Assembly (NCBI GenBank): GCA_035528375.1 | Contig: DATKYS010000132.1 | Coordinates: 731 to 64,730, forward strand | Source: a bacterium | Lineage (GTDB): Bacteria > RBG-13-66-14 | Direction: 5' to 3' | DNA: 64,000 bases | Shown here: piece after piece, positions 1,946 to 57,465 of the stretch | Layout of the letters: the number at the start of each line of letters is the position of its first letter | How positions within the stretch are numbered: position 1 is the first letter of the stretch | Notes under the pieces: model-generated | The model's input: only the letters and a program-made list of their open reading frames with translations | The model's database searches: none | What the model was told of the DNA's origin: nothing | Translations under genes and position numbers: made by a program

Positions 1946-2004
1946 ACCGCCGCCCCGTTTCCCGTCTCTGTACCGAGTTGTAACCGTGAAGTCCGAAACA
2001 AGAA

Positions 2005-2027
2005 AGGCGGCCCGTGCCGCCTTTTTA
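2005..2027 (+). terminator. Rho-independent terminator (GGCGGCccgtGCCGCC + T5)
   Basis: Perfect GC hairpin followed by TTTTT directly after the DUF3795 stop. Confidence 0.6.
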
Positions 2028-2040
2028 ATATCGCTTTAAT

Positions 2041-2301
2041 TCAAACTTCATTGACTTCTTGGATGGGGGTACCTGTACCTGAAGGGATTGTAACCACATT
2101 GAATTCCCCACAGTTAGGGCAAGTGAAAGGACTTGTGTTAAAAGTGTTAACTGGGAATATAATTTTACACGCCGGACACCAAGCAGCTGCGTTATTTCCC
2201 AACGCCCAAATAGGAAATGACCTTCTATTTAACAGATTTTCCGGTATTTGCCTGTATGATTCTTGACCTACTGCGCCGTATTTGTATCTCATTCCCATCA
2301 C
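2041..2301 (-). CDS. Small zinc-ribbon protein (CPAC...CPNC), part of a low-GC islet
   Basis: 86-aa ORF with two CxxC pairs 22 aa apart. Lies in a 30-40 % GC segment against a 65 % GC background. Co-directional with and 85 nt downstream of the 237-aa orphan. Confidence 0.5.
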   Translation of the reverse strand: MMGMRYKYGAVGQESYRQIPENLLNRRSFPIWALGNNAAAWCPACKIIFPVNTFNTSPFTCPNCGEFNVVTIPSGTGTPIQEVNEV

Positions 2302-2386
2302 CTCACCTTTCCTTTAGAGTTGAAAAAATCATTTTGTCCTGATAGAGTGCTAGGTAATTTAATGTATGTTTCTGTACAGCTATATT

Positions 2387-3100
2387 TTAGTATCTGTTTA
2401 TGAAATCTAAGAATTTCAAACCAGATGTGTCAATTATATTTGTGTGGTATTTGTTTGTATCATATTTATACTTATCATCTTGAATGTTTTGTTGTTTTGT
2501 ATAACCACCATATAAGAAGAAAATGTGTGTAGAGGTGATTATTGATTGAGCAATGTCGGATGGTAAGTCTGGTAATGCTTCTTTAATTAGTAAATATTGT
2601 GGACTATTAGGTGGATTGTGTTGTAAAAACCTATCATAAATGTCTTTCTGCACTGATATTTCTAAGAGAGTTAGATGTAAACTTGTTAGGCTATTAAGGC
2701 AATGTAAATAATAGTCAGCTAAATCTAATTCTATACGTTCTTTTTTTGATATATTTAAAATAGCATTTTTATAATTATTAATTTTGCTTGTATTCTTGGC
2801 GGTTGTGGCACTTATTAAAACGTCTTCGAAAAAACAGGTGTATTCATCGGTTCGAAGAAAATTATCATCTAATATATGCTTATTCGATAATTCATTCAAA
2901 CCCGCTGCTATTTCGAATAGTAATCTTTTTAATACATCAAATCTCCTTTTAGTAATTCGATAGCTAATAATATTATCTATTGATGAACCAACTATTGGAA
3001 ATGCCGTTATAAGTGGCTTAATAATAGATTCATATAGTTCTTCATGTGGTTTTGATAAATCTCTAAGGTAATCGTATAATTTATTATTTGCTTCTACCAC
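2387..3100 (-). CDS. Orphan hypothetical protein (237 aa), low-GC islet; no recognisable family
   Basis: Long uninterrupted ORF in an AT-rich segment (many Lys/Asn/Ile/Tyr codons), starting 5 nt after the pilQ stop. I can see no conserved catalytic motif. Confidence 0.55.
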   Translation of the reverse strand: MVEANNKLYDYLRDLSKPHEELYESIIKPLITAFPIVGSSIDNIISYRITKRRFDVLKRLLFEIAAGLNELSNKHILDDNFLRTDEYTCFFEDVLISATTAKNTSKINNYKNAILNISKKERIELDLADYYLHCLNSLTSLHLTLLEISVQKDIYDRFLQHNPPNSPQYLLIKEALPDLPSDIAQSIITSTHIFFLYGGYTKQQNIQDDKYKYDTNKYHTNIIDTSGLKFLDFINRY

Positions 3101-3105
3101 AGAGT

Positions 3106-5223
3106 TTACTCCGGGCGGACCAGGTGCGGGGTGACGAATATCAACAGCTCGCGCACCTCGTCGGAATCCGACGTGCTCTTGAACAACAGGCCCAGTACCG
3201 GGATGCTGGATAACAGCGGCACCCCCTGCTCAATCGATTCGGTCTTGCGCCGCAGGAGGCCGCCGATGACGCCGGTCTCGCCGTTCTGCAGCAACAGTGT
3301 GGTGCTGGCCTCGGTGGTGTCCACCTGGAACTCGAGCCCCGGCGCCGGGGTGCGGGACATCTCCGAAATCTCCGGCCGGATGTCCAGGGTTATCTCGTTG
3401 ACCGAGTTCACGTGGGGGGTGACCGAGAGCTTGATGCCCACGTCGTAGAGCTCGACGTAGGTGTTGCCGTTCTCGTCGAGTAGGTTGACGGGGATGCGGC
3501 TGCCGACGAGGATGCGGGCCTCCTGGTTGTCCAGGGTGGTGATGCGGGGGGCAGAGAGGATGTTGGTGTCGGTGTCGGCGGCGTTGGCCTGGAGGGTCGC
3601 CTGGAGTGTGGCGGCGTCGAGGGCCGTGCGGCCGGTGGCGGTGAGGGTGCCGGCGTTGGACGGGGTGTCTATGACCACCGAGTTGCCCCGGAGACCGAAC
3701 TCCCAGTCTATGCCCAGCTCGGTGAGGGTGGTGATGCGCACGTCGAAAATTTTCGCCTCGATCATCACCTGGGCGGTGCGGGCGTCGAGCTGCTCGACCA
3801 GTCGGCGGATGCGGTCGCGGCGCTCCAGGGTGTCGGTGACGATGAGGGAGTTGGTCCGCGGCTCGACCTGAATCTGGCCCCGGTCCGAAATCATGGACTC
3901 GAAGCTGGCCTTGAGGCTGGCCGCCGTGGCGTAGCGCAGGGTGATTATCTCGGTGCCCACGGGCGAGGCGGCCTCGGCCTCGGCCATCTTCACCAGCTCC
4001 TCGGGGGTGTTGACCCGGATGATGGAGCCCTCGACGCGGTAGGAGAGGCCGTGGGCGGCCAGAATCACGCGCAGCGCCTCGTCCCAGGGCACGTCGCGCA
4101 GGGCGACGGTGACCTTGCCGGTGACGTTGGGCCCGGCCACGATGTTCATCCCCGTCTCGAAGGCCAGCATCCGCAGGACGTTGCCGATGTCGGCGTCCTT
4201 CAGGTCCATGGATATGCGCTTGCCCGAGGGGATGGTGCCTCCCCCGCTCGAGCCGCCGTAGCCCGTCTCGGCGGTGTAGGTCTCGGTGGTGTGGTAGGAG
4301 GTGGAGCCGACGCCCGACTCGGCGACCTCGGCGGTGACGTAGGTCTCCACGCGCTCCAGGTCCACGCTGGAGGTGTAGCCGTAGCTCAGGCCGGCGAAGG
4401 GATCGGTCTCCTCGGTGATGACGTCCAGGTAGAGGGCGTTGCCCCGGCGGGTGATGAGGTAGGGGTAGTCGCCGGTGGTCTGGGTGACGACGCGGACGAT
4501 GCGCTGGGGGGTGGTGGAGTACTGTGTGGCGCTGACCTTGACCAATCCGCCCCGGTCCAGGTAGAGGGTCGGCTGGTCGAGGTCCACCCGGGCGCCGATC
4601 AGGTCCAGCACGAAGGTCCGCGGCGATACGGTCTTAGAGAAATCGAACTTCAGCGGCGCGTCGGCGGTAATCTCTATCCGGGTCTTGCCGATGAGCTCGC
4701 GCACCTCGATGTCGCCGACCGCGGCTATCTCCGCCGTAATCCGCTCCTCGGGCCGTCCCCCGGGCGGGGCGGGGAAGCGGACCTCGATGGTGTTGCCCTC
4801 CTTCGTCAGGTAGTAGGGTTCGAACCGGGTCAGATCAATGACCACGCGGACTATCTTGGAGGGTATCTCCGAGTACTGGCTGGAGCGGATGCGCTGTATG
4901 TTATGGCCGGTCTCGACCTTGACCAGGGGGTCGCACTGGTGGACCGAGTTCTTGATGTCCACGATGACCCGGGGCGGGTCCTCCAGGGAGAAGACGTCGT
5001 AAACCAGGGAGGCGTCGCCGGTGATGGTGACTATCTCGTCGCCGCCGGCGTCGGTGGAGAACTCGACGGAGGATACGCGGGGCGCCTGGGCGAGGGCGAT
5101 CGTCGCCGACAGGAAAACGATGAGCAATAACGGGGGTCTGACTCTCACGGCCACTTCCCGTTCGGGGCGGGTATTCTTCCCCTGAAGTATAGCAGAAATC
5201 GAGGGTGATGCAAGGGTGTGCAA
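3106..5223 (-). CDS. pilQ: Type IV pilus / type II secretion secretin (PilQ/GspD family)
   Basis: Signal peptide, N-terminal AMIN-like repeats, C-terminal secretin motifs (GETGVIGGL...VPLLSSIPVLGLLF...ELLIFVTPHLV). Confidence 0.8.
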   Translation of the reverse strand: MHTLASPSISAILQGKNTRPEREVAVRVRPPLLLIVFLSATIALAQAPRVSSVEFSTDAGGDEIVTITGDASLVYDVFSLEDPPRVIVDIKNSVHQCDPLVKVETGHNIQRIRSSQYSEIPSKIVRVVIDLTRFEPYYLTKEGNTIEVRFPAPPGGRPEERITAEIAAVGDIEVRELIGKTRIEITADAPLKFDFSKTVSPRTFVLDLIGARVDLDQPTLYLDRGGLVKVSATQYSTTPQRIVRVVTQTTGDYPYLITRRGNALYLDVITEETDPFAGLSYGYTSSVDLERVETYVTAEVAESGVGSTSYHTTETYTAETGYGGSSGGGTIPSGKRISMDLKDADIGNVLRMLAFETGMNIVAGPNVTGKVTVALRDVPWDEALRVILAAHGLSYRVEGSIIRVNTPEELVKMAEAEAASPVGTEIITLRYATAASLKASFESMISDRGQIQVEPRTNSLIVTDTLERRDRIRRLVEQLDARTAQVMIEAKIFDVRITTLTELGIDWEFGLRGNSVVIDTPSNAGTLTATGRTALDAATLQATLQANAADTDTNILSAPRITTLDNQEARILVGSRIPVNLLDENGNTYVELYDVGIKLSVTPHVNSVNEITLDIRPEISEMSRTPAPGLEFQVDTTEASTTLLLQNGETGVIGGLLRRKTESIEQGVPLLSSIPVLGLLFKSTSDSDEVRELLIFVTPHLVRPE

Positions 5224-5290: not shown

Positions 5291-5788
5291 TCACCAGCCC
5301 TCGACGATGCGGTCCACGACACGCTGGGCCAGGAGGTTGACCGACTCGGTGTAGGCCTCCGCCTCGGTCCCGCTCCCCGCGCCGGTCTCGACGTCGTAGT
5401 ACGTCACGCGCTCGGAGAGGGAGGTGTCCCGCCAGAGGTCGCGTTTGGCGTCCAGGTCCCGGAAGACCACCTCGAGCTCCACGGTGAGCTCGCGTTTTTT
5501 CACCGCCTCCTCCACGTCGTAGGCCACGGCGCGGGTGACGTAGCTGGTGATGGTGACCAGGAGGAGGGAGTCGGCGCGCGCCTCGGGGGCCACGGTCAGG
5601 GGCGAGTTGACCAGGAGTTCCTCGATGATGGCGGCGGTGAGCTCCTGCTCGATGCCGTACTCGAATGTGGCGTTGGCGACGGTGGGCACCGCCACCGACT
5701 CGATTCCCGGCGGCAGGTTGGGGCTGAAGGTGTAGCGGCAGCCCGCGGTAAGGACCAGCGCCACGAGTGGAGCGACGATTCTCCTCAC
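5291..5788 (-). CDS. Lipoprotein, LptE-like (LPS-assembly lipoprotein) candidate
   Basis: Lipobox LTAGC, then a Y/F pattern. Length and overall layout resemble LptE. Weak call. Confidence 0.4.
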   Translation of the reverse strand: MRRIVAPLVALVLTAGCRYTFSPNLPPGIESVAVPTVANATFEYGIEQELTAAIIEELLVNSPLTVAPEARADSLLLVTITSYVTRAVAYDVEEAVKKRELTVELEVVFRDLDAKRDLWRDTSLSERVTYYDVETGAGSGTEAEAYTESVNLLAQRVVDRIVEGW

Positions 5789-6450
5789 GGCCGTTCCTCT
5801 TTCAGGAAGTCCACGAGCCGCTTCAGCGCTCGGCCGCGGTGGCTGACGGCGTGCTTGGCCTCCGGGGAATGTTGGGCGAAGGTAAGCTCCGACCCCTCGG
5901 GGATGAAGAGGGGGTCGTAACCGAATCCCCCGTCGCCTACCGGCCGGTCCCCGATCCGCCCCTCCACCTTCCCCACGGCGGCCAGGAGAACCTCCCCCGC
6001 CGGAGTGACCAGGGCGACGGCGCAGGTGTAGCGGGCGATGCGGTCGGAGAATCCCTCGAGCTCGGCGAGGAGCCGCACGTTGTTGAGCGAATCCGCGGGG
6101 ACGTCCGTCGCCGTCAGCGGACGGCCTCCGGGGTATTCTGGATAAATGCCGCGAAGCATTTCGGCGTCGAGGGCGTGGTACCGGGCGGAGAAGATACCCG
6201 GCGCGCCGCCCAGGGTGTCCACGGACAGCCCCGAGTCCTCGCCCAGCCCCAGGTCGCCGAACCTCTCGGCTACGGCGGTGGCCTTGAGGACGGCGTTTTC
6301 GGTGAAGCTCCGGCCGGTCTCGGCAATCTCGAGGGTGCCCGCGGGGTCGAGCTCCAGGAGGGAGACCGGGTGGTACCCCTCGGTTCCGAGGATGTCCCGG
6401 AGCTCGCGGAGCTTGTCGGGGTTTCGGCTGGCGATCAGGATGCGGCTCAT
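5785..6450 (-). CDS. rdgB: Non-canonical purine NTP pyrophosphatase (dITP/XTP pyrophosphatase, Ham1/RdgB)
   Basis: MSRILIASRNPDKLRELRDIL...TFAQHSPEAKHAVSHRGRALKRLVDFL, the full-length Ham1 family pattern. Confidence 0.85.
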   Translation of the reverse strand: MSRILIASRNPDKLRELRDILGTEGYHPVSLLELDPAGTLEIAETGRSFTENAVLKATAVAERFGDLGLGEDSGLSVDTLGGAPGIFSARYHALDAEMLRGIYPEYPGGRPLTATDVPADSLNNVRLLAELEGFSDRIARYTCAVALVTPAGEVLLAAVGKVEGRIGDRPVGDGGFGYDPLFIPEGSELTFAQHSPEAKHAVSHRGRALKRLVDFLKEERP

Positions 6451-6495
6451 GGTTTAAAATAATTCATGCGTTTATTAATTAAATTAATTTTGCAC

Positions 6496-6524
6496 TTGAC
6501 ATTATAAATGTTTCTCGCTACACT
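6496..6524 (+). promoter_or_regulatory. Sigma70-type promoter, TTGACA-17-TACACT
   Basis: Consensus -35 hexamer, 17-nt spacer, good -10, about 100 nt upstream of the DUF2089 start. Implies the real start is the Met at 6628, not the track start at 6508. Confidence 0.55.
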
Positions 6525-6627
6525 TTCTCTCGGACCGGGTGAACGCGCAAAGAAGAAGTCGCCAACCTGGACATTTTACCAGACGCACGGGATCCGTACT
6601 GAGCCAAAATCGTCCGAGGAGCCGAAA

Positions 6628-7029
6628 ATGCCCTATCCCATACCCGGCCACTGCCCCGTCTGCGGCAAGGAGTTCAACGTCACCGAGCTCCTCTGCAAGA
6701 GCTGCCGCGCCACTCTGCGCGGTGACTTCACCCTCTGCGATTTCTGCCGCCTGAGCTCTGAACAGCGCGCCTTCCTGAAGCACTTCGTCGCCGTCGGCGG
6801 GAGCATCAAGGACATGGAGGGCATCCTGGGCATCAGCTACCCCACGGTGAAAAAGCGGCTGGCCGAGCTGGCCGACATCCTGGGCGTGGGGCACCGATTC
6901 CCCCGACCGGACCCCAAACGGGCGGCCGCCGAGAGGCTCAGGTTGCTGGAGATGCTGGCGGCCGGCGAGATGACGGCCGACGAGGTTTCCAAACGGTTCG
7001 AGGAGATGAACGAAGAGGAGGAACGATGA
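6628..7029 (+). CDS. DUF2089-like protein: N-terminal zinc ribbon + sigma-70 region-4-like HTH + C-terminal SHOCT-like helix
   Basis: MPYPIPGHCPVCG...CKSCR...CDFC zinc ribbon. SEQRAFLKHFVAVGGSIKDMEGILGISYPTVKKRL is an HTH. C-terminal ERLRLLEMLAAGEMTADEVSKRF is SHOCT-like. RBS GGAG 8 nt upstream. Confidence 0.65.
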   Translation: MPYPIPGHCPVCGKEFNVTELLCKSCRATLRGDFTLCDFCRLSSEQRAFLKHFVAVGGSIKDMEGILGISYPTVKKRLAELADILGVGHRFPRPDPKRAAAERLRLLEMLAAGEMTADEVSKRFEEMNEEEER

Positions 7030-49994: not shown

Positions 49995-51191
49995 GTGGGG
50001 TTCGGTGAAAAACGCTCCAGGGAGATGTTCGCCCAAATGGCTAAACGTTTCCAGCTCGGACCGGAGATCGAGCGCTACACACAGCTCCTGGCGCGCGATC
50101 CCGATTCCCTAGCCTTCGTGCCCCTGGCGGACGCCTACCGCAAGAGCGGCCTCTTCGAGGAGTCCTTCGCGGTGCTCAAGCGGGGGATGGGCCGGCGTCC
50201 CGATTACATCCCCGCCAAGATAGTTTTAGGCAAGTGCTACCTGGACCTGGGCAACTACCCCAAGGCTGAGACCACCTTTGAGGACATCCTGCGGTTGGAC
50301 CGGGACAACCTCGTGGCGCTCTCCTCCATGGCCAACGTCAGGTTGCACCAGCGGCGCTACGGCGAGGCGGCCACCATCTACCGCCGCATCCTCGAACTCG
50401 ACCCGTCCAACGACGCCGCGGCCCAGCAGTTGGCGAAACTGGAGGGCAAGGCCCTCTCGCAGAACCAGGGTGAGGTCATCGAGATAGACATTGAATCCAC
50501 CGCGACGAAGATCCCGGCCACCGAGCCTCTCTCCGGCGAGATCGAGGAGGTCGAGGAGAGGCCTCCGGACACCCTCGACTTCGAGAACGTGATGCGGGCT
50601 GGATCCCTCCCCTCATCCCGGGAATCCGGCGAGGCTCTGCCGGTGACGGAGCCGCCCGTGGATGGACCGGAGGTCTCGGTGGGGGAATCCCGGGGAAGCG
50701 GCGATGGTGCTGATTCACCGCCGATCACCGGGAAGGCTGCGACCGGTGTGGAACCGGCTGACTCCGGCTCGAACGGCGAACCCACGGAGATAGATTTGGA
50801 CCTCATCCCCCCGGTGGTGCCCCTCGACATCGTGGATGATGAGCCCCGGGAAACTGTCGCTGAAAAGGACGTGGTTCCCCCGGACCCGTCGAAAGCCGGA
50901 GGGGAGAAGCCGGTGAGGCACGCCGGCGACGAGCCCGAAATCAATGTTGATGTGCCCGTGCCTCCGCCGCCCGACACCGAGGAACTGGCCCTCGTGGAAC
51001 CGGAGCACGTCGAGGTGATGCCCGAAGACGAGGTGCCCCCGGAGATACCCCCGGTGAAGGACACGGCTCCGATTATTCCCACCGAAGAATCCGATAAACC
51101 CGCTTTCAAGACCTTCTCGAGCTGGCTCTCCGGCATGGCCGGACGGAAAGACGAAGAGGTAGAGGAAGAGGACAAAGGAGTCGAGCAGTGA
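49995..51191 (+). CDS. TPR-repeat protein with acidic/Pro-rich C-terminal tail
   Basis: Three or four TPR-like helices (AKIVLGKCYLDLGNYPKAETTFEDILRLD...) followed by a low-complexity PE/PV-rich tail. Stop overlaps the next gene's start. Confidence 0.6.
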   Translation: MGFGEKRSREMFAQMAKRFQLGPEIERYTQLLARDPDSLAFVPLADAYRKSGLFEESFAVLKRGMGRRPDYIPAKIVLGKCYLDLGNYPKAETTFEDILRLDRDNLVALSSMANVRLHQRRYGEAATIYRRILELDPSNDAAAQQLAKLEGKALSQNQGEVIEIDIESTATKIPATEPLSGEIEEVEERPPDTLDFENVMRAGSLPSSRESGEALPVTEPPVDGPEVSVGESRGSGDGADSPPITGKAATGVEPADSGSNGEPTEIDLDLIPPVVPLDIVDDEPRETVAEKDVVPPDPSKAGGEKPVRHAGDEPEINVDVPVPPPPDTEELALVEPEHVEVMPEDEVPPEIPPVKDTAPIIPTEESDKPAFKTFSSWLSGMAGRKDEEVEEEDKGVEQ

Positions 51192-51544
51192 ATGAGGTCG
51201 TGGAAATCCTGAAACGCCTGCTCGTGGTCAAAGAGGTCAAGGTCGCCGTGGTGGTCGGGGAGGACGGGCTCGTGCTCGATTCCGCCGGCTCCGAGGAGGC
51301 CGACGTCGAGGCCATCGGGGCGATTTGCGCCAGCGGCTACCTCTCCTTCAAGCAGATCGGCGAGGAGCTCAACTACGGGGCCGTAGTCCAATCCGTCACC
51401 CGATTCCAGTCCGGCGTCATCGTCCTCTCCCGGCTGCCCAACCAGCTGACCCTGGCCGTGGTGGCGACGGAAAAGGCCAACCTGGCCAAGGTCTGGGACG
51501 CCACCGGCGGAATAATCACCGACATGGCGCGGCTGCTGCGTTAA
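51188..51544 (+). CDS. Roadblock/LC7 (MglB-like) domain protein
   Basis: 118 aa. VVGEDGLVLDSAGS...AICASGYLSF...VLSRL, typical of Roadblock/LC7. Confidence 0.65.
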   Translation: MNEVVEILKRLLVVKEVKVAVVVGEDGLVLDSAGSEEADVEAIGAICASGYLSFKQIGEELNYGAVVQSVTRFQSGVIVLSRLPNQLTLAVVATEKANLAKVWDATGGIITDMARLLR

Positions 51545-51559
51545 GGACTCGCCGCGGAA

Positions 51560-52159
51560 TTGGATTATCAAACCCGACTCATCGAGGCCGCTCTGGCTGC
51601 CCTGGACGAGCGCCGGGGCGGCCATGTGCTGAGGACCGCCCAGGTCGCCGCCGGGCTTTCCCCGGGGATGGAGGGAAGGTTCCGCGAGCTCTCCCTGCCG
51701 GACGAGGAACCGGTCGCCGGTGTGCCGCTGTCCTCGCGGGCCTATCTGGCCGGCATCCTGCACGATTCACACCGCGACGGCTCCGGCCCCACACCCGATT
51801 TCCCCCTGGACGAGATTGAGGCGCGCTACCCCTGGAAGCTCGCCCACGCCGCCCTGGCGGCCCAGTTCGCCTACGATGGGGGACTGCGCGACGCGGGCGT
51901 GCTCTTCGCCGTCCGGTACCACACCATCGGCCACCCCTCGCCGACGCCGCTTCTGTGCTCCCTGATGCTGGCCGACGCAATCGAGCCGGGCCGCGCGCAC
52001 GAGGGCGTGGAGGAGATTCGAGAAACCGCCGGGCGCGACCCCGTCGCCGCCCTGGTTAAGCGTCTGAAGAGCACCACCGGTTTCGTCGCCGCTCAGGGGC
52101 TCGAGGTCCACCCGAACGCCCTGGCCCAGATAGCGACCCTGGAACGGGCTTTAAAATGA
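51560..52159 (+). CDS. yqeK: HD-domain bis(5'-nucleosyl)-tetraphosphatase YqeK-like
   Basis: HD motif (GILHDSHR), about 200 aa, positioned directly upstream of rsfS as in the conserved nadD-yqeK-rsfS arrangement. Confidence 0.55.
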   Translation: MDYQTRLIEAALAALDERRGGHVLRTAQVAAGLSPGMEGRFRELSLPDEEPVAGVPLSSRAYLAGILHDSHRDGSGPTPDFPLDEIEARYPWKLAHAALAAQFAYDGGLRDAGVLFAVRYHTIGHPSPTPLLCSLMLADAIEPGRAHEGVEEIRETAGRDPVAALVKRLKSTTGFVAAQGLEVHPNALAQIATLERALK

Positions 52160-52524
52160 GCACCACCCGGAAATCACCGCCCGAGGGAGAGGAGCTGGTC
52201 CGCCTCATCGCGCTCTGCCTCGACGAGGGCAAAGCGGAGGAGGTCGTCGCCCTCGACCTTAGGGGTATCGGGGCGATGAGCGACTATTTCGTCATCGCTT
52301 CGGGTGTCACCGACAACCACGTCCGGGCGCTGTGCGAGCGAATCGAGCGCGACCTCGTCCCGAAGGGCGCCAAGCCGCTCCATCGCGAGGGGCTCGAGAC
52401 CTGTAACTGGGTTCTCTTGGACTACTTCGAGGTGGTCGTGCACGTCTTCCGTCGCCCGGTGCGGCGGTATTACGACCTGGAGCGGCTCTGGGGCGACGCG
52501 CCGGCGCTGGAGCTGGGACTTTAA
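52156..52524 (+). CDS. rsfS: Ribosomal silencing factor RsfS (Iojap)
   Basis: KAEEVVALDLRGIGAMSDYFVIASGVTDNHVRAL...VLLDYFEVVVHVF, which is RsfS. Confidence 0.85.
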   Translation: MSTTRKSPPEGEELVRLIALCLDEGKAEEVVALDLRGIGAMSDYFVIASGVTDNHVRALCERIERDLVPKGAKPLHREGLETCNWVLLDYFEVVVHVFRRPVRRYYDLERLWGDAPALELGL

Positions 52525-52992
52525 GTGTTCACCGTCCGGCTGCTCACCGTCTCCCCGACGCGGCGCGATTTCGTCCGCGACGGGCTCGCATTCTACATCG
52601 AGCGCCTGAACCGCTTCTGCAATTTTCATCTGGTGGAGGTGCGTGAAGTTCCCCTGAAGGAGGGGGAGAAGGGGGGGGCGGAATGGGCCCGCCGGCGGGC
52701 CGCGGTCGCCCTGGCCGCCAAGCGCGCGGGGGGATTCGCCTCCGTTCAGGTGGATCCGCGGGGGCGGCAGCTCTCCAGCGAGGAGTTCGCGAAATGGCTC
52801 GACGGGGCAAGGCGGACTAAGCCGGGCCTGGACGTCATTCTCGGCGGAGCCGCGGGGCTGGAGCCGATGAAGGTGGACCTCATGCTTTCCCTCGGACCGT
52901 GGACGCTGCCCCACGAGCTGGCGCGCCTGGTGGTCATCGAAGGGCTCTACCGCACTTTCACCATCCTCACCGGACACCCGTACCACAAATGA
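52525..52992 (+). CDS. rlmH: 23S rRNA (pseudouridine1915-N3)-methyltransferase RlmH
   Basis: SPOUT-fold, 155 aa. ...ILGGAAGLEP...LPHELARLVVIEGLYRTFTILTGHPYHK. Probably a GTG start. Confidence 0.75.
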   Translation: MFTVRLLTVSPTRRDFVRDGLAFYIERLNRFCNFHLVEVREVPLKEGEKGGAEWARRRAAVALAAKRAGGFASVQVDPRGRQLSSEEFAKWLDGARRTKPGLDVILGGAAGLEPMKVDLMLSLGPWTLPHELARLVVIEGLYRTFTILTGHPYHK

Positions 52993-52996
52993 TTTT

Positions 52997-54826
52997 ATGC
53001 CTCTGGAAGATTTAAAGAAAAGCCTGTCGGCGATAATCGGCAAAACGGCCGAGGGGCTCTTCGACCTCCCGGACGGCCCGCCCGCCTTCGACCTCTCGCC
53101 CTCGGCGGAGCCGAAATTCGGGCACTTCGCCTGCAACCTGGCGTTGCAGCTCGCCGGTCCGCTGAAGCGCAGCCCGCGGCAGATTGGCGAGGCATTGGCC
53201 GGAGAGTTGGAGAAGGTTTTTGGGGATTTGGTGGAGCGGATCGAGGTCGCCGGGCCGGGTTTTTTGAACTTCCACCTCGCCGCCGGGGCGCAGGCCGAGC
53301 CGGTGAAGTCCATTCTCGCGGAAGAGAAGCCCTTCCTCTGGCCCGCCGAGAAGCCGCTAAAGATCAACTTGGAGTACGTGAGCGCCAACCCGACGGGTCC
53401 GCTGCTGGTGGTGAACGGCCGCGCCGCGGCCCTGGGCAGCGCGTTGGCGAAAATCCTCGTATCGGTGGGCCACCAGGTCACGGAAGAGTATTTCGTCAAC
53501 GATGCTGGTAGCCAAGTGGTCGAGTTCGGCAAGAGCGTGTTCCGGGAGAATAGGGACAAGTATCGTAAGGCTGGATATGAGATACCAAATAATGTTTATG
53601 ATTTGGGTAACGAGGGAGGCTATGCAGGTGATACTACTTCTGATGTAGCTGACACTGTTTATAAGAGCTTTATAGAAGAATACATGGCGACTACGCGAAA
53701 AATGATCTTTGACGAAAAAGCATATATAGATGAAGTAAATAACAGTGTAGTTGCTCAGCTGGAAAAGCAACAAATTACATTAAAACGATTTGGTTGTTTG
53801 TTCCAACAGTTTTATAAAGAGCACTATCTCTACTTCCCATCGGTTCGTCCATCCTATAGGAGCGTACTTGAAAATTATATTTTAAACGATGAATTATACA
53901 TTGAGCGACTTCCAGGCCCAATTCGGGATGCCCTTTACCTACTTAAAGAGCTACGGATCGCCTACGAGTCCGAGGGCGCGGTCTGGCTCAGGACCACCGA
54001 CTACGGCGACGAGAAGGACCGCGTCATCGTCCGCTCCAACGGCAAGCCGACCTATCTCCTCACCGACATCGCCTACCACCTGGACAAGTGGGAACGGCTC
54101 GGCGGGGACGAGTCGGGACGCCTGATGATTGACATCTGGGGACCGGACCACCACGGCCACATCCTCCCCACCAAGGCCGGCCTCCAGGCCGCCGGCATCC
54201 CGCCGGACAGGCTGGAGGTTTTAATCTCCGGTTGGGTGACGCTCAAACGCGGCGGCGAAATCGTCTCCATGAGCAAGCGCAAGGGGAACATCGTCACCCT
54301 GGACGAGCTTCTGGACGAGGTCGGGGTGGACGTGGCGCGGTACATGTTCCTCGAGCGCTCGCCCGAGGCGCACCTGGACTTCGACCTGGACCTGGCCGTC
54401 CAGCAGTCCTCGGAGAACCCGGCGTACTACATCCAGTACGCCCACGCGCGCATCGAGAGCATCTTCTCCGTGGCCCGGGAGGAAGGTTTTAGCGAGGATG
54501 AGCTTGGCGATGCCTCACTGGCGGAAGCCGACCTGACGCCCCTCTTTACCGACGACGACGCGGGCGAGCGTCAGCGGGAACTCCTGCGGCAGATAATCTT
54601 CTACCCCGGCGTGGTCGCGGGCGCCGCGGCGGGCTACGCCCCCCAGCGCGTGACCGCCTATCTGCACAACCTGGCCGGCGTCTTCCACCCGTACTACAAG
54701 AAGGTCAAGGTGCTGGTGGAGGAACGGGGGACGGCGCTGGCGCGGCTCGCTTTATGCCGGTCGTTGCAGAAAATCCTGGCCCACGGGCTCGGCCTGTTGG
54801 GCATATCGGCCCCCGAGTCCATGTAG
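52997..54826 (+). CDS. argS: Arginine--tRNA ligase (mosaic: in-frame low-GC segment at 53520..53900; degenerate HIGH motif)
   Basis: ArgS N-terminal Add-1 domain, ...EYVSANPTGPL[LVVN]GR... where HVGH is expected, ...WLRTTDYGDEKDRVIVRSNGKPTYLLTDIAYH..., SMSKRKGN, C-terminal DALR anticodon-binding domain. Confidence 0.85.
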   Translation: MPLEDLKKSLSAIIGKTAEGLFDLPDGPPAFDLSPSAEPKFGHFACNLALQLAGPLKRSPRQIGEALAGELEKVFGDLVERIEVAGPGFLNFHLAAGAQAEPVKSILAEEKPFLWPAEKPLKINLEYVSANPTGPLLVVNGRAAALGSALAKILVSVGHQVTEEYFVNDAGSQVVEFGKSVFRENRDKYRKAGYEIPNNVYDLGNEGGYAGDTTSDVADTVYKSFIEEYMATTRKMIFDEKAYIDEVNNSVVAQLEKQQITLKRFGCLFQQFYKEHYLYFPSVRPSYRSVLENYILNDELYIERLPGPIRDALYLLKELRIAYESEGAVWLRTTDYGDEKDRVIVRSNGKPTYLLTDIAYHLDKWERLGGDESGRLMIDIWGPDHHGHILPTKAGLQAAGIPPDRLEVLISGWVTLKRGGEIVSMSKRKGNIVTLDELLDEVGVDVARYMFLERSPEAHLDFDLDLAVQQSSENPAYYIQYAHARIESIFSVAREEGFSEDELGDASLAEADLTPLFTDDDAGERQRELLRQIIFYPGVVAGAAAGYAPQRVTAYLHNLAGVFHPYYKKVKVLVEERGTALARLALCRSLQKILAHGLGLLGISAPESM

Positions 54827-54868
54827 CGGCGGTCCGCGGACTGGTTTATACTGGTTCCGAGGGAACCC

Positions 54869-55765
54869 ATGCGGAAACTTTACGGCTTGATCCGGCTGAT
54901 GCGGCCCAGGCAGTGGCTGAAGAACGTCGTCGTCTTCGCCGGCGTCGTGTTCGCGCAGCTTTACACCTCCCCGGCGGCGCTTCTGCGGTCCCTGGAGGCC
55001 TTCGGCATCTTCTGCCTCCTTTCGGGGGCGGTTTACGCCCTCAACGACGCCGTGGACGCCGAGCGCGACCGCTCGCACCCACACAAGAAAAACCGCCCGG
55101 TCGCCTCGGGCTTGGTGCCCCGGTCGCTGGCCTACTCCTGGTCCATCGTTCTGGCCGCCGGGGGGCTCCTGGCGGCCTGGACGGTCACGGAGGGCTTCCT
55201 CATCGTCGGCGCCGTTTACCTCGGCCTGAACCTGATTTATAGCTTCTGGGCCAAGAAGGTGGTCATCCTCGACGTCCTCCTCGTCGCCTTCGGCTTCGTA
55301 CTGCGGGCCATCGGCGGCGTGGAGGCGCTGGTGGACTTTTCGCCGGGCCTGAAGTCCTCCCCCTGGTTCCTGGCGGTGACGCTCTTTTTGGCGCTCTTCC
55401 TGGCCCTGGAGAAGCGCCGGGCCGAGCTCACGTCCCTGGCCGAAGGCGCGGAGAGCCACCGCAAGACCCTGAGCGAGTACTCCACGCGCCTGTTGGACCA
55501 GATGTCCGCCGTGGTCACGACCGCCACCGTGGTGGCCTACAGCCTCTACACCCTCTGGCCCTCGACCGTGGAGCGGTTCGGGACCGAGGGGCTCGTCTAC
55601 ACGGTCCCCCTCGTTCTCTACGGCGTCTTCCGCTACCTCTACGACGTGGAGCAGCGGCGGCTGGGCGGCAACCCCTCGGCCATCCTCTCCAAGGACGTTT
55701 CGCTTTTGGTGGACGTTTTACTATGGGCCGCGGCGGTGGTGCTCATCATCCACTTCAAGCCGTAG
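54869..55765 (+). CDS. UbiA-family prenyltransferase, decaprenyl-phosphate phosphoribosyltransferase-like
   Basis: Polytopic membrane protein. NDAVDAERDRSHPHKKNRPVASG (Asp-rich motif), second motif region ~LALEKRRAEL. Confidence 0.7.
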   Translation: MRKLYGLIRLMRPRQWLKNVVVFAGVVFAQLYTSPAALLRSLEAFGIFCLLSGAVYALNDAVDAERDRSHPHKKNRPVASGLVPRSLAYSWSIVLAAGGLLAAWTVTEGFLIVGAVYLGLNLIYSFWAKKVVILDVLLVAFGFVLRAIGGVEALVDFSPGLKSSPWFLAVTLFLALFLALEKRRAELTSLAEGAESHRKTLSEYSTRLLDQMSAVVTTATVVAYSLYTLWPSTVERFGTEGLVYTVPLVLYGVFRYLYDVEQRRLGGNPSAILSKDVSLLVDVLLWAAAVVLIIHFKP

Positions 55766-55814
55766 TTTTAACGAAAGGCGGGCCCGGCCCGCCTTTTTAA
55801 AAACCCGCGAACGG

Positions 55815-56324
55815 TCAGTCCTCCATCGTCCACTGGTTGATGCCGAACCAGTGGCCGGTGTTGTTGATGTAATCGAGCTGTGACCTGAGCAGCTCGAAGT
55901 GACCCTCCTCCATCTGGGCGAGGTTTTTAAAGGTCTCGCGGACGGTGGCATCGTCGGCCTTGCGCGACCACTCGGTGTAATAGTCTATGGCTTCCCGCTC
56001 CAGGTTAATGGCCGTCTTGATGGCGTGGAGCTCGTTGGCGCCCTCGGCCCCGGCGGTCCTCTTCGCCACCGAATCGAGTTTCGGGACGAGCTCCGCAATC
56101 TCCGTCTGCGAGATTTCTATCGGCTCGATGGGCTTCCCGGCGAAGGCGTCGTTGAACTGCCGCCGCAGAATCTCGTAGTGGTCCACCTCCTCCCGGGCCA
56201 GGGTGATGAACATGTTCTTGCCGGTCTCGTCCCTGGTCTGCCGGGCGAACTCCAGATAGGTGGTGAAACCGGTTATCTCGGCCTCTATGGCCTGGGCGAG
56301 CACCTGTGCCACGGTTTTGCTCAA
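55815..56324 (-). CDS. Rubrerythrin-like ferritin-fold (diiron) protein, no rubredoxin tail
   Basis: EAEITGFTTYLEFA...LAREEVDHYEIL...ERE...MEEGHFELL, the ExxH diiron ligand pairs. Confidence 0.7.
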   Translation of the reverse strand: MSKTVAQVLAQAIEAEITGFTTYLEFARQTRDETGKNMFITLAREEVDHYEILRRQFNDAFAGKPIEPIEISQTEIAELVPKLDSVAKRTAGAEGANELHAIKTAINLEREAIDYYTEWSRKADDATVRETFKNLAQMEEGHFELLRSQLDYINNTGHWFGINQWTMED

Positions 56325-56371
56325 GGGTGCCTCCTGCGCTGGGTCGTTGATTATCGTCGTCTATCTCGTGC

Positions 56372-56397
56372 CGGCAAGGGGCTTAAACCCCTTGTCT
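56372..56397. repeat. Palindromic repeat GGCAAGGGGCTTAAACCCCTTG (copy of 7826..7849)
   Basis: 22 of 24 nt identical to the 7826 copy. Lies between the ychF stop and the rubrerythrin start. Confidence 0.6.
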
Positions 56398-56400
56398 CCT

Positions 56401-57465
56401 TTATACGGAAAAACGGAAGAGGATGACGTCGCCGTCCTGGACCGGGTAGTCTTTGCCCTCGATGCGGTAGAGGCCTCTCTTTTTGAGCTCGGCGATAGAG
56501 CCGTGCTCGCGCAGGTCTTCGAAGTGGGCCACCTCGGCGCGGATGAAGCCGTGGGCGATGTCGGAGTGTATGCAGGCCGCCGCCTCGAGGGCGGATGCGC
56601 CGCGCGGGAGAGTCCAGGCCCGGGTCTCTTTCTCGCCGGAGGTGAAGAAGCTCGACAGGCCCAAGGTGTCGTAACAGGCCCTGATCACTCGCTGGACGCC
56701 GTCTTCGGGCAGGTCGAACTCCCTCCTCATCAGTCCGGCTTCTTCAGGCTCCAGGCCGGCCAGCTCGCCCTCCAGCTTCCCGTGGATGACGAGCGGCTCG
56801 GCGGTCATTTGATCGAAATCTTTCGACAGGTCGCGCCCGTCGGCGTCCGCATTCAGGAGCGTGATGGTCGGCTTCAGCGTCAACAGGCCCAGGCCGCGGA
56901 CCAGCTCCTCCTCGGCGGGGGTGAGGTCCACGGCGGATGCGGGACCGCCCCCCTCGAGCGTCCGCGCCAGCCGCCCGAGAGCCTCCCGCTCGACGCTCGC
57001 CAACTCCAACGCCCGCTTGTCGCTCCGGTTCACCCCCCTGTCCACGTTCTCCATCCGGGTTTGAACCGCGCCGAGGTCGGCCACGCCCAGTTCCAGCACG
57101 AAGACCTCGAAATCCCGGGCCGGGTTCACGGAGCCCTCGGGGTGGGGAACGTTGGGGTCATCGAAGGCGCGCAGAACGACGAGAAGGGCGTCGGCACGGC
57201 GAAGCTCGCTGATGAAACGCGCCGCCACCGATCCCCCGCCCTGACCCCGGGCCAGACCGGCCACATCGAGGTAGGTCACCTGCGCCCGGGTAAGCTTCCC
57301 CTTCCCCTCCAGGGACCAGAGCCATTCCAAACGCTCGTCAGCCACCGGCGTCACCTCCACGTTGACCTCCACTTTCCCGGGGTGCGAGTCGTGGTGCGAT
57401 CCGGTCAGGAGGTTGAAGAGGGTGGTCTTGCCCGACTGGGGCAGCCCGCAGAGGCCGACGTTCAT
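56401..57465 (-). CDS. ychF: Ribosome-binding ATPase YchF (Obg-like ATPase)
   Basis: GLCGLPQSGKTTLFNLLT P-loop, ...TGS domain C-terminus (YPVQDGDVILFRFSV). Start set at MNVGLCGL inside the longer track ORF. Confidence 0.8.
   Translation of the reverse strand: MNVGLCGLPQSGKTTLFNLLTGSHHDSHPGKVEVNVEVTPVADERLEWLWSLEGKGKLTRAQVTYLDVAGLARGQGGGSVAARFISELRRADALLVVLRAFDDPNVPHPEGSVNPARDFEVFVLELGVADLGAVQTRMENVDRGVNRSDKRALELASVEREALGRLARTLEGGGPASAVDLTPAEEELVRGLGLLTLKPTITLLNADADGRDLSKDFDQMTAEPLVIHGKLEGELAGLEPEEAGLMRREFDLPEDGVQRVIRACYDTLGLSSFFTSGEKETRAWTLPRGASALEAAACIHSDIAHGFIRAEVAHFEDLREHGSIAELKKRGLYRIEGKDYPVQDGDVILFRFSV

What the first reader, a model, noticed from the sequence alone, without database searches (positions are those of the whole stretch)
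52997..54826. argS is mosaic: in-frame ~380-nt low-GC segment plus a degenerate HIGH motif (HVGH to LVVN)
The ArgS ORF is continuous and ArgS-like end to end. Nt ~53520-53900 (residues ~175-300, ...RENRDKYRKAGYEIPNNVYDLGNEGGYAGDTTSDV...NDELYIERL) falls to about 35-40 % GC inside an otherwise 65 % GC gene. That pattern implies an intragenic recombination with a low-GC donor. Just upstream, the class-I signature that normally reads PLHVGHGR reads PLLVVNGR (CCG CTG CTG GTG GTG AAC GGC CGC). That is five nucleotide changes, not a single sequencing error. The SMSKRKGN (KMSKS-like) motif is intact. A HIGH-less ArgS would be expected to be catalytically impaired. Possible explanations are a non-canonical or paralogous ArgS, with the functional copy elsewhere, or a chimeric assembly.
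Basis: seen in the sequence. Interest (0 to 1): 0.6.

Follow-up and report, generated by a model that had tools for sequence, protein, structure and literature searches.

The report
Swappable AT-rich cassette inside argS
The arginine-tRNA ligase gene of this uncultured Coatesbacteria-group bacterium carries an AT-rich block of about 130 codons that has been swapped repeatedly between related lineages by recombination, and its whole lineage also lacks the usual "HIGH" catalytic signature, so both oddities are inherited features and not errors.

Summary
Both observations are real.

**Low-GC segment.** ORF 52997-54826 is a full-length ArgS. Codons 189-319 (nt 53561-53953) have GC3 0.31, against 0.88 for the rest of the gene.

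**HIGH site.** It reads L-V-V-N at nt 53405-53416.

**Neither is an artefact:**
- An independent assembly of the same strain has an identical argS.
- Eight other genes of the Coatesbacteria-type ArgS clade have a similarly AT-rich block (GC3 below 0.35) at the same place, with different end points. Three more have an intermediate dip.
- LLVVNGR is invariant in all 17 clade genes.
- Related N-[VI]-V-[NS] forms occur in cultured Limnochorda pilosa and Geochorda subterranea.

**The block is a recombinational cassette:**
- Lineages with flank dS of 0.3-0.4 have cassette dN of 0.7-1.0.
- One pair of genes is identical at most flank sites (flank dS 0.023) but only about 40% identical between codons 182 and 311.
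- The cassette tree conflicts with the flank tree.
- Genes that share a cassette evolve at near-normal rates under purifying selection, so hypermutation is unlikely.

No donor was found in public data, and what drives the exchange is unknown.

**Verdict.** The impaired-enzyme reading is disfavoured, though a canonical second argS elsewhere in the genome could not be checked. The chimeric-assembly reading is rejected. This is a new variant of a known kind: a sub-genic "homeoallele" or mosaic gene.

The parts
52997..54826 (+). argS, arginine-tRNA ligase of the Coatesbacteria-type clade (609 aa)
   Evidence: ORF. TIGR00456 scores 310 bits against a 261.65 cut-off. The AF2 model has pLDDT 92, and its best Foldseek matches are ArgRS structures 3fnr, 2zue, 1iq0 and 1f7u.
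53015..53278 (+). N-terminal ArgRS-specific domain (aa 7-94)
   Evidence: Pfam PF03485 Arg_tRNA_synt_N, E = 1.2e-18.
53405..53416 (+). L-V-V-N in place of the class I HIGH tetrapeptide (aa 137-140)
   Evidence: Sequence. Invariant in all 15 clade proteins and 17 clade genes. Related xVV[NSTQ] forms occur in other phyla.
53540..53929 (+). Cassette core (aa 182-311), the block exchanged between lineages
   Evidence: These are the breakpoints of the near-identical pair L164/L005: 100% nt identity up to codon 181 and from about codon 312, and about 40% between them. Cassette identity among close relatives is 18-50% against 85-90% for flanks. The model shows helices 172-191, 198-206, 211-230 and 240-264, strand 271-274, and helices 287-295 and 308-318.
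53561..53953 (+). Low-GC3 tract of this particular gene (aa 189-319)
   Evidence: Change-point analysis gives GC3 0.31 inside and 0.88 outside. CAI-like index is 0.19. Composition profile.
54269..54280 (+). M-S-K-R, the retained KMSKS-type loop (aa 425-428)
   Evidence: S426, K427 and R428 are invariant across 72 ArgS, with or without HIGH; M425 is conserved in at least 90% of them.
54431..54823 (+). DALR anticodon-binding domain (aa 479-609)
   Evidence: Pfam PF05746, E = 2.6e-27.
52156..52992 (+). Upstream rsfS and rlmH (context); rlmH ends 4 nt before the argS start
   Evidence: Pfam RsfS and SPOUT_MTase. The same order is found in L161 and L163.

Best explanation
This is most likely the organism's working arginine-tRNA ligase. 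It has two separate lineage traits.

**1. A HIGH-less active site.**
- The class I HIGH signature is replaced by LVVN.
- The replacement is fixed in the whole Coatesbacteria-type ArgS clade and resembles the N-[VI]-V-[NS] forms of a wide set of bacterial ArgRS.
- It is a conserved alternative motif, not decay.
- That the enzyme is active is inferred from conservation. It was not assayed.

**2. An exchangeable cassette.**
- About 130 codons between the two halves of the Rossmann fold behave as an allelic cassette. They cover the helical insertion, one core strand and a clade-specific extra loop.
- Very divergent versions circulate among these bacteria. I count 9 clusters at 60% or higher aa identity among 16 genes.
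- Recombination anchored in the highly conserved flanks swaps one version for another. This step is shown.
- The AT-rich versions trace to deep, unsampled AT-rich lineages that have the same ArgS architecture. The end points of each import differ, but every import spans the same core. This step is inferred.
- Once in place, a cassette evolves under purifying selection at near-normal rate. This step is shown.

**What keeps many versions in circulation is not known.** My best guess is diversifying or frequency-dependent selection on this peripheral domain by something that binds ArgRS. Neutral introgression is the alternative.
For: **Real, not an artefact.**
- L161, an independent assembly, has a base-identical argS.
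- AT-rich tracts sit at the same place in L001, L002, L005, L078, L081, L088 and L162 (cassette GC3 0.27-0.34). L003, L084 and L085 show an intermediate dip (GC3 0.48-0.59). Flank GC3 across the 17 genes is 0.69-0.90.

**Replacement, not drift.**
- Window against L081, L001 and L002: flank dS 0.34-0.38 and dN 0.06-0.07, but cassette dN 0.66-1.0 with dS saturated.
- L164 against L005: flank dS 0.023, cassette dN 0.885, with razor-sharp junctions at codons 181/182 and 311/312.

**No hypermutation.**
- Pairs that share a cassette behave normally. L004-L083 has cassette dS 0.37 against flank 0.58. L163-L165 has 0.24 against 0.23.
- The AT-rich pair L001-L162 has cassette dN 0.16 and dS 0.92 against flank 0.11 and 0.44.

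**Incongruent trees.**
- The flank tree has 4 subclades, with L005+L164 at 100% bootstrap.
- The cassette tree groups L005 with L001/L162 (87%) and L088 (80%), so this type spans three flank subclades.

**Independent imports.**
- Tract bounds differ: 189-319, 171-333, 164-325, 152-355, 151-329 and 200-311.
- In L081 the import reaches into conserved residues. There its identity to flank relatives falls from 85-91% to 61-70%, equidistant from all subclades.

**Cassettes are functional equivalents.**
- G193, Y209, T213, Q254, F265, E275, L278 and Y279 are invariant across the 16 genes compared, which cover every cassette cluster.
- Models of a type-A and a type-B protein have the same order of helices and strands.

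**HIGH-less trait.**
Against: - No donor was found. The whole-protein search found only 15 clade proteins, all with GC-rich flanks where DNA was read.
- The exhaustive search with the cassette hit one clade member only. Nothing turned up in viral, phage or plasmid collections.
- Cassette GC3 forms a near-continuum from 0.27 to 0.87, with several genes at a floor of 0.27-0.29. That would also fit slow AT decay of long-isolated alleles.
- dN/dS used simple NG86 and the trees are NJ.
- The rest of the genome was not available, so a second argS cannot be excluded.
- No read-level data and no enzyme assay.
- The selective driver is a guess.
Confidence: 0.75

Rival explanations
1. The segment is diverging in place. 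This domain has relaxed constraint or local hypermutation and drifts under AT-biased mutation, perhaps because diverged alleles no longer recombine and so escape GC-biased gene conversion.
For: - Cassette GC3 runs from 0.87 down to a common floor near 0.28.
- The AT-rich cassettes of the window, L081 and L002 are each closer to the GC-rich type than to one another, a star-like pattern.
- FYMINK residues rise from about 0.2 to about 0.35 of the cassette.
- A link between recombination and GC content in bacteria is described in PMC4450053.
Against: - L164 and L005 differ at dS 0.023 in the flanks yet are unrelated in the cassette, with sharp junctions. That would need a rate elevated more than 100-fold.
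- AT-rich cassettes shared by two lineages (L001/L162) evolve only about twice as fast as the flanks, with dN/dS 0.18.
- Type B is shared across three flank subclades.
- This process could still explain why old alleles are AT-rich. It cannot explain their distribution.
Confidence: 0.1
2. This protein is a catalytically impaired ArgS paralogue or pseudo-enzyme, and a canonical HIGH-bearing ArgS elsewhere in the genome does the charging.
For: - Both histidines and the glycine of HIGH are replaced.
- Pfam's catalytic-domain model matches only residues 296-460.
- The rest of the genome was not available.
Against: - The motif is invariant across the clade despite saturated synonymous divergence.
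- Flank dN/dS is about 0.2.
- All other ArgS-invariant columns are kept.
- The NCBIfam equivalog score is above its cut-off.
- The gene lies in conserved housekeeping synteny.
- The ArgS recorded for cultured Limnochorda pilosa and Geochorda subterranea is also HIGH-less.
- There is no second argS in the 64 kb.
Confidence: 0.07
3. The AT-rich tract is kept for a DNA- or RNA-level role, such as an internal promoter, a translational pause through rare codons, a silencer binding site or an embedded RNA.
For: - The tract is a long run of rare codons (CAI-like 0.19).
- It lies between the two halves of the catalytic fold.
Against: - Promoter-like and terminator-like sites are no more frequent than in shuffled sequence.
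- No Rfam match.
- Nucleotide sequence is not conserved between lineages (about 40% identity).
- Several clade members have a GC-normal cassette (L163 and L165 at GC3 0.84-0.87).
Confidence: 0.04
4. The segment is an assembly chimera, or it results from programmed diversification such as a diversity-generating retroelement or gene conversion from silent cassettes.
For: - The contig comes from a metagenome.
- Only 64 kb of the genome could be checked for templates.
Against: - An independent assembly is identical across argS.
- The feature recurs in 9 or more assemblies from other samples.
- No second copy of the cassette was found at DNA or protein level in the window or in the relatives' loci.
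Confidence: 0.03

Closest known systems
Aminoacyl-tRNA synthetase 'homeoalleles' (Andam and Gogarten; PMC3191353)
   Same: - Divergent forms of one synthetase with the same function coexist within a higher taxon.
- Their distribution is patchy and conflicts with the reference tree.
- Replacement happens by homologous recombination in conserved flanks while synteny is kept.
   Different: - There the unit is the whole gene, and usually two forms exist.
- Here it is a 130-codon internal block with at least 9 forms, most of them far more AT-rich than the host genome.
Mosaic essential genes made by interspecies recombination, such as the penicillin-binding protein genes of Streptococcus and Neisseria (my own knowledge, not checked here)
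   Same: Blocks of highly diverged sequence with sharp borders sit inside an otherwise near-identical essential gene, imported independently in different lineages.
   Different: - In those cases the donors and the selective agent (beta-lactams) are known, and base composition is not shifted.
- Here neither the donor nor the agent is known.
Low-GC hypervariable loci exchanged through conserved flanks, such as O-antigen and capsule clusters (my own knowledge)
   Same: Many deeply diverged alleles, lower GC than the genome, and swapping by recombination in the flanks.
   Different: Those are multi-gene loci for surface structures. This is one domain of a cytoplasmic translation enzyme.
Class I synthetases with altered signature motifs: ArgRS lacking KMSKS but with a HIGH-loop lysine (Sekine et al. 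2001), and TrpRS with TIGN in place of HIGH (my own knowledge)
   Same: - A class I signature can be altered in an active enzyme.
- Asn at the fourth HIGH position has a precedent.
   Different: - Here both His and the Gly are replaced (LVVN) while MSK is retained.
- I found no paper on this form.

Membership tests
Arginine-tRNA ligase (ArgRS, class Ia) | Full-length match to the curated ArgS model above its cut-off | tested here: met
   TIGR00456 scores 310.2 bits against a cut-off of 261.65.
Arginine-tRNA ligase (ArgRS, class Ia) | N-terminal ArgRS-specific domain and C-terminal DALR anticodon-binding domain | tested here: met
   PF03485 at E = 1.2e-18 and PF05746 at E = 2.6e-27.
Arginine-tRNA ligase (ArgRS, class Ia) | ArgRS three-dimensional fold | tested here: met
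   The AF2 model has pLDDT 92. The top 20 Foldseek matches are all ArgRS, with E from 2e-31 to 1e-20.
Arginine-tRNA ligase (ArgRS, class Ia) | HIGH signature (H-x-G-H) | tested here: not met
   The site reads L-V-V-N. This is a clade-wide trait, and the same lack is seen in ArgS of cultured bacteria. The feature is therefore not universal in the family as annotated.
Arginine-tRNA ligase (ArgRS, class Ia) | KMSKS-type loop | tested here: met
   S-M-S-K-R-K-G at aa 424-430. S426, K427 and R428 are invariant in 72 ArgS, and M425 is conserved in at least 90% of them.
Arginine-tRNA ligase (ArgRS, class Ia) | tRNA-dependent arginine activation and charging of tRNA-Arg | not testable with these tools
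   Needs an enzyme assay.
aaRS homeoallele / mosaic gene by recombination | Divergent, functionally equivalent forms whose distribution conflicts with the reference phylogeny | tested here: met
   The flank and cassette NJ trees conflict. There are 9 cassette clusters among 16 genes. The same secondary-structure order and the same invariant residues are kept.
aaRS homeoallele / mosaic gene by recombination | Replacement through recombination in conserved flanks with synteny kept | tested here: met
   L164 and L005 have sharp junctions with 100% identical flanks. rsfS-rlmH-argS synteny is kept.
aaRS homeoallele / mosaic gene by recombination | The exchanged unit is the whole gene | tested here: not met
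   Only codons of about 150-355 at most are exchanged. The outer flanks follow one tree.
Diversity-generating retroelement target | A template repeat near the variable region | tested here: not met
   No second copy was found in the window. The rest of the genome was not seen.

The most novel reading that the evidence does not exclude
The insertion domain of ArgRS is an arms-race surface. A phage protein, toxin or natural inhibitor that docks on this domain would drive frequency-dependent selection. That selection would keep many ancient cassette alleles circulating across a whole phylum, inside an essential translation enzyme that also works without the class I HIGH histidines.
Probability: 0.2. 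Interest if true: 0.8.

Novelty: new variant of a known kind. Interest (0 to 1): 0.6.

Why it matters
**Sub-genic allele exchange in a core gene.**
- Essential translation genes are usually treated as stable, vertically inherited markers.
- Here one structural domain of such a gene behaves like a hypervariable, exchangeable allele with foreign base composition.
- Near-identical strains carry unrelated versions.
- This is a clean natural case for asking what selects for domain swapping in a synthetase.
- It also lets one ask why long-lived divergent alleles in GC-rich bacteria are AT-rich.
- Practically, such blocks will distort argS phylogenies and binning by composition.

**A class I enzyme without HIGH.**
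- A widespread ArgRS form lacks the HIGH histidines and includes cultured species.
- It offers a test of how far class I catalysis depends on that motif.

Tried and rejected
**Searches for a donor or a second copy (all negative):**
- Word-index protein search with the 143-aa segment alone returned nothing, not even the source protein. I treat this as a limit of the index for short queries.
- Viral contig scan with the clade alignment found no relatives.
- tblastn of the cassette against the phage and plasmid collections found no match.
- Exhaustive phmmer of the cassette against 1.84 billion representatives hit one clade member only.
- Search for silent or template copies of any cassette in the window and in the relatives' loci found none.

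**Searches for a nucleic-acid function (all negative):**
- Rfam scans of 51000-57000 and of L005, L006 and L163 found nothing.
- tRNA scans found nothing.
- The promoter and terminator scan showed no excess over shuffled sequence.

**Literature:**
- Searches for a HIGH-less ArgRS, for mosaic aaRS genes and for Coatesbacteria turned up nothing on this feature.

**Considered and rejected:**
- An antisense ORF at 53357..53773 (138 aa) as the reason for the composition. The nucleotide sequence is not conserved between lineages.

**Not possible:**
- Checking complete genomes for a second argS.
Full report
**What is in the window**

ORF 52997..54826 (+) encodes a 609-aa protein without interruptions.
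- It scores 310 bits against the curated ArgS model TIGR00456, above the 261.65 cut-off.
- It has the N-terminal ArgRS domain, part of the class I catalytic domain and the DALR anticodon-binding domain.
- An AlphaFold model built on a 72-sequence alignment has mean pLDDT 92. Its 20 best matches among solved structures are all ArgRS.
- The identical protein is on record as a MAG-derived "arginine--tRNA ligase [bacterium]". The nearest relatives include Candidatus Coatesbacteria bacterium RBG_13_66_14.
- rsfS and rlmH lie immediately upstream, and a UbiA-family gene lies downstream.

**The two observations hold**

*Composition.*
- GC in 150-nt windows falls to 0.33-0.40 between about 53500 and 53950. 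The window mean is 0.648.
- A change-point fit on third codon positions puts the tract at codons 189-319 (nt 53561-53953). GC3 is 0.31 inside and 0.88 outside.
- The tract is a run of codons that are rare in this genome. Its CAI-like index is 0.19, and the lowest of 539 equal-length windows in the other genes of the window is 0.31.

*Motifs.*
- The HIGH position reads P-L-L-V-V-N-G-R at 53399-53422.
- The KMSKS-type loop S-M-S-K-R-K-G is present.

**Not an assembly artefact**
- An ENA assembly from another record (L161, a 27.6-kb contig) matches the window at 99.95% over 21 kb. It has 7 mismatches and 4 gap openings elsewhere, and its argS is identical base for base.
- I fetched argS DNA for 16 further clade members from independent genome and metagenome assemblies.
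- Eight of them (L001, L002, L005, L078, L081, L082, L088, L162) have an AT-rich tract at the same place, with cassette GC3 of 0.27-0.34. L082 is a second assembly identical to L001.
- L003, L084 and L085 are intermediate, at 0.48-0.59.
- The others range from 0.64 to 0.87.
- Flank GC3 across all these genes is 0.69-0.90.

**The HIGH replacement is a lineage trait**
- LLVVNGR is invariant in all 15 clade proteins and all 17 clade genes. Flank synonymous divergence between subclades is 0.9-1.7, so the motif is held by selection.
- The more distant ArgS that score best against this protein carry similar motifs: NVVN, GVVN, IVVQ, VVVN and NVVS.
- A search seeded with a Limnochorda sequence returned mostly N-[VI]-V-[NS] forms. 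These include the ArgS of cultured Limnochorda pilosa and Geochorda subterranea (PMNVVNAR), each encoded on a multi-megabase contig.
- Across 72 ArgS with and without HIGH, the other family-invariant columns are all kept. Examples are E126, N131-P135, R142, N168, D169, Q173, Y209, E275, Y353, D357, H361, W381, D384, H385 and S426-R428.
- Flank dN/dS is about 0.2.
- I infer an active enzyme with an alternative motif. This is inference, not assay.
- I found no paper that describes this form.
- From my own knowledge, Asn at the fourth HIGH position has a precedent in the TIGN of TrpRS. ArgRS is also already known to tolerate loss of KMSKS.

**The low-GC block is an exchanged cassette**

*Divergence far beyond the flanks.*
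- The window's gene and its closest relatives (L001, L002, L081) are 88-90% identical in protein flanks but 23-41% identical in the block.
- For those pairs flank dS is 0.34-0.38 and flank dN is 0.06-0.07. Block dN is 0.66-1.0 and block dS is saturated.
- Block divergence therefore greatly exceeds the neutral divergence of the surrounding gene.

*The decisive pair: L164 and L005.*
- Flank dS is 0.023.
- The DNA is 100% identical up to codon 181 and, apart from two scattered substitutions, again from about codon 312.
- Between those points identity is about 40%. One gene has GC3 0.71 there and the other 0.28.
- That is a clean replacement with sharp junctions.

*No hypermutation.* Pairs that share a cassette behave normally.

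| Pair | Block dS | Flank dS | Block dN | Flank dN |
|---|---|---|---|---|
| L004-L083 | 0.37 | 0.58 | 0.054 | 0.049 |
| L163-L165 | 0.24 | 0.23 | 0.053 | 0.095 |
| L001-L162 (both AT-rich) | 0.92 | 0.44 | 0.16 | 0.11 |

The block in L001-L162 has dN/dS of 0.18, so the cassettes are constrained coding sequence.

**Phylogenetic conflict and independent events**
- NJ trees with 200 bootstraps give four flank subclades, with L005+L164 at 100%.
- In the cassette tree L005 joins L001/L162 (87%) and then L088 (80%). This "type B" therefore occurs in three of the four flank subclades.
- The GC-rich "type A" cassettes cluster at 93%.
- At 60% or higher aa identity there are 9 cassette clusters among 16 genes.
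- The AT-rich tracts have different end points, but all cover the same core.

| Gene | Low-GC3 tract (window aa numbering) |
|---|---|
| window | 189-319 |
| L001 | 171-333 |
| L002 | 164-325 |
| L081 | 152-355 |
| L088 | 151-329 |
| L005 | 200-311 |

- In L081 the tract runs into conserved residues, which are then written in AT-rich codons. In that stretch identity to its flank relatives drops from 85-91% to 61-70%, about the same distance as to every other subclade.
- The donor of that tract was therefore a deep, AT-rich lineage with the same ArgS architecture. No such lineage has been sampled.

**What the cassette encodes**
- In the model, codons about 172-318 form helices 172-191, 198-206, 211-230 and 240-264, strand 271-274, and helices 275-278, 287-295 and 308-318.
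- By position this is the insertion between the two halves of the Rossmann fold, which structural papers on ArgRS call Ins-1. It also takes in the next core strand and a clade-specific extra loop of about 20-35 residues. The naming is from my own knowledge.
- A model of a type-B protein (P0014, pLDDT 91) has the same order of elements.
- Eight residues are invariant across the 16 genes compared, which cover every cassette cluster: G193, Y209, T213, Q254, F265, E275, L278 and Y279. Y209 and E275 are invariant in ArgS at large.
- AT-rich cassettes shift the protein toward F, Y, M, I, N and K: about 0.35 of residues, against about 0.20 in the flanks.

**Search for a source**
- The whole-protein search of 5.8 billion sequences found 15 clade proteins and then a gap down to 42-45% identity.
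- An exhaustive phmmer search of 1.84 billion cluster representatives with the 130-aa cassette found one hit, a clade member at 48% identity.
- Nothing related was found in viral contigs, phage genomes or plasmids.
- There is no second copy of any cassette, no template repeat and no second argS in the 64 kb.
- No RNA family matched, and promoter-like and terminator-like sites show no excess.

**Mechanism and what remains inferred**

*Shown:*
- The block is replaced by recombination between lineages whose flanks are 90-100% identical at the DNA level.
- Replacement has happened many times.
- Cassettes stay under purifying selection.

*Inferred:*
- The AT-rich versions descend from unsampled AT-rich relatives. 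After import, recombination with native alleles trims the tract back to the core, where no homology is left. That would explain a common core with variable ends.

*An added possibility:*
- Alleles too diverged to recombine internally may escape GC-biased gene conversion and drift toward AT.
- This fits the shared floor of GC3 near 0.28 and the link between recombination and GC content reported for bacteria (PMC4450053).
- It cannot by itself explain the L164/L005 pair or the distribution of type B.

*Unknown:*
- Why so many versions persist. I favour diversifying selection on an exposed domain, but I have no direct evidence for it. Neutral introgression is the alternative.

**Comparison with what is known**
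- The closest concept is the aaRS "homeoallele". These are divergent, functionally equivalent synthetase genes that replace one another among relatives, sometimes by recombination in conserved flanks (PMC3191353).
- The present case differs in scale (one domain, not a gene), in the number of forms and in the composition shift.
- It also resembles mosaic pbp genes and low-GC hypervariable surface-polysaccharide loci (my own knowledge).
- I rate it a new variant of a known kind.

**Limits**
- dN/dS used the NG86 method and the trees are NJ on short alignments.
- Several loci are partial.
- All sequences come from metagenomes.
- Neither reads nor the rest of the genome could be examined.

Noticed in passing
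window 1951-3200: This is the strongest low-GC island of the window, with a minimum GC of 0.255 in 200 nt. It holds a stand-alone 237-aa ORF at 2387..3100 (-) with no Pfam match. The ORF sits directly downstream of a PilQ-type secretin gene at 3106..5223 (-). It looks like a foreign orphan gene.
   Followed up: partly
window 6401-6650: A weaker GC dip (0.445) lies between the divergent ORFs 5785..6450 (-) and 6508..7029 (+). It is probably an intergenic promoter region.
   Followed up: no
L005 2073-2982; L006 about 950-1740: A non-coding insertion of about 790 nt, with reduced GC (two patches with 200-nt minima of 0.41-0.43), lies between rlmH and argS.
- It is 86% identical between L005 and L006.
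- It is absent from L163 of the same subclade.
- It has no tRNA and no Rfam match.
- A perfect hairpin, CCGAGTTCTCCC-GCAG-GGGAGAACTCGG, lies about 100 nt upstream of the argS start, in a stretch that L163 also matches in both orientations.
   Followed up: partly
P0122, P0222 and loci L008, L027, L060, L079, L045, L055: The HIGH site of bacterial ArgS is more variable than textbooks suggest.
- N-[VI]-V-[NS] in Limnochordia, including cultured L. pilosa and G. subterranea.
- SVVS, NVVS and NVVT in Actinomycetota MAGs.
- HLGG in Actinomyces and Buchananella.
- HVAS, TIAH and HMGN elsewhere.
   Followed up: partly
window 53357-53773 (-): A 138-aa antisense ORF overlaps the left part of the cassette. 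The underlying DNA is not conserved between lineages, so I treat it as chance.
   Followed up: partly
L001 1376-1875: A run with GC of 0.00 in the fetched RBG_13_66_14 locus. It is presumably masked or unknown bases (N) in the record and not real sequence.
   Followed up: no
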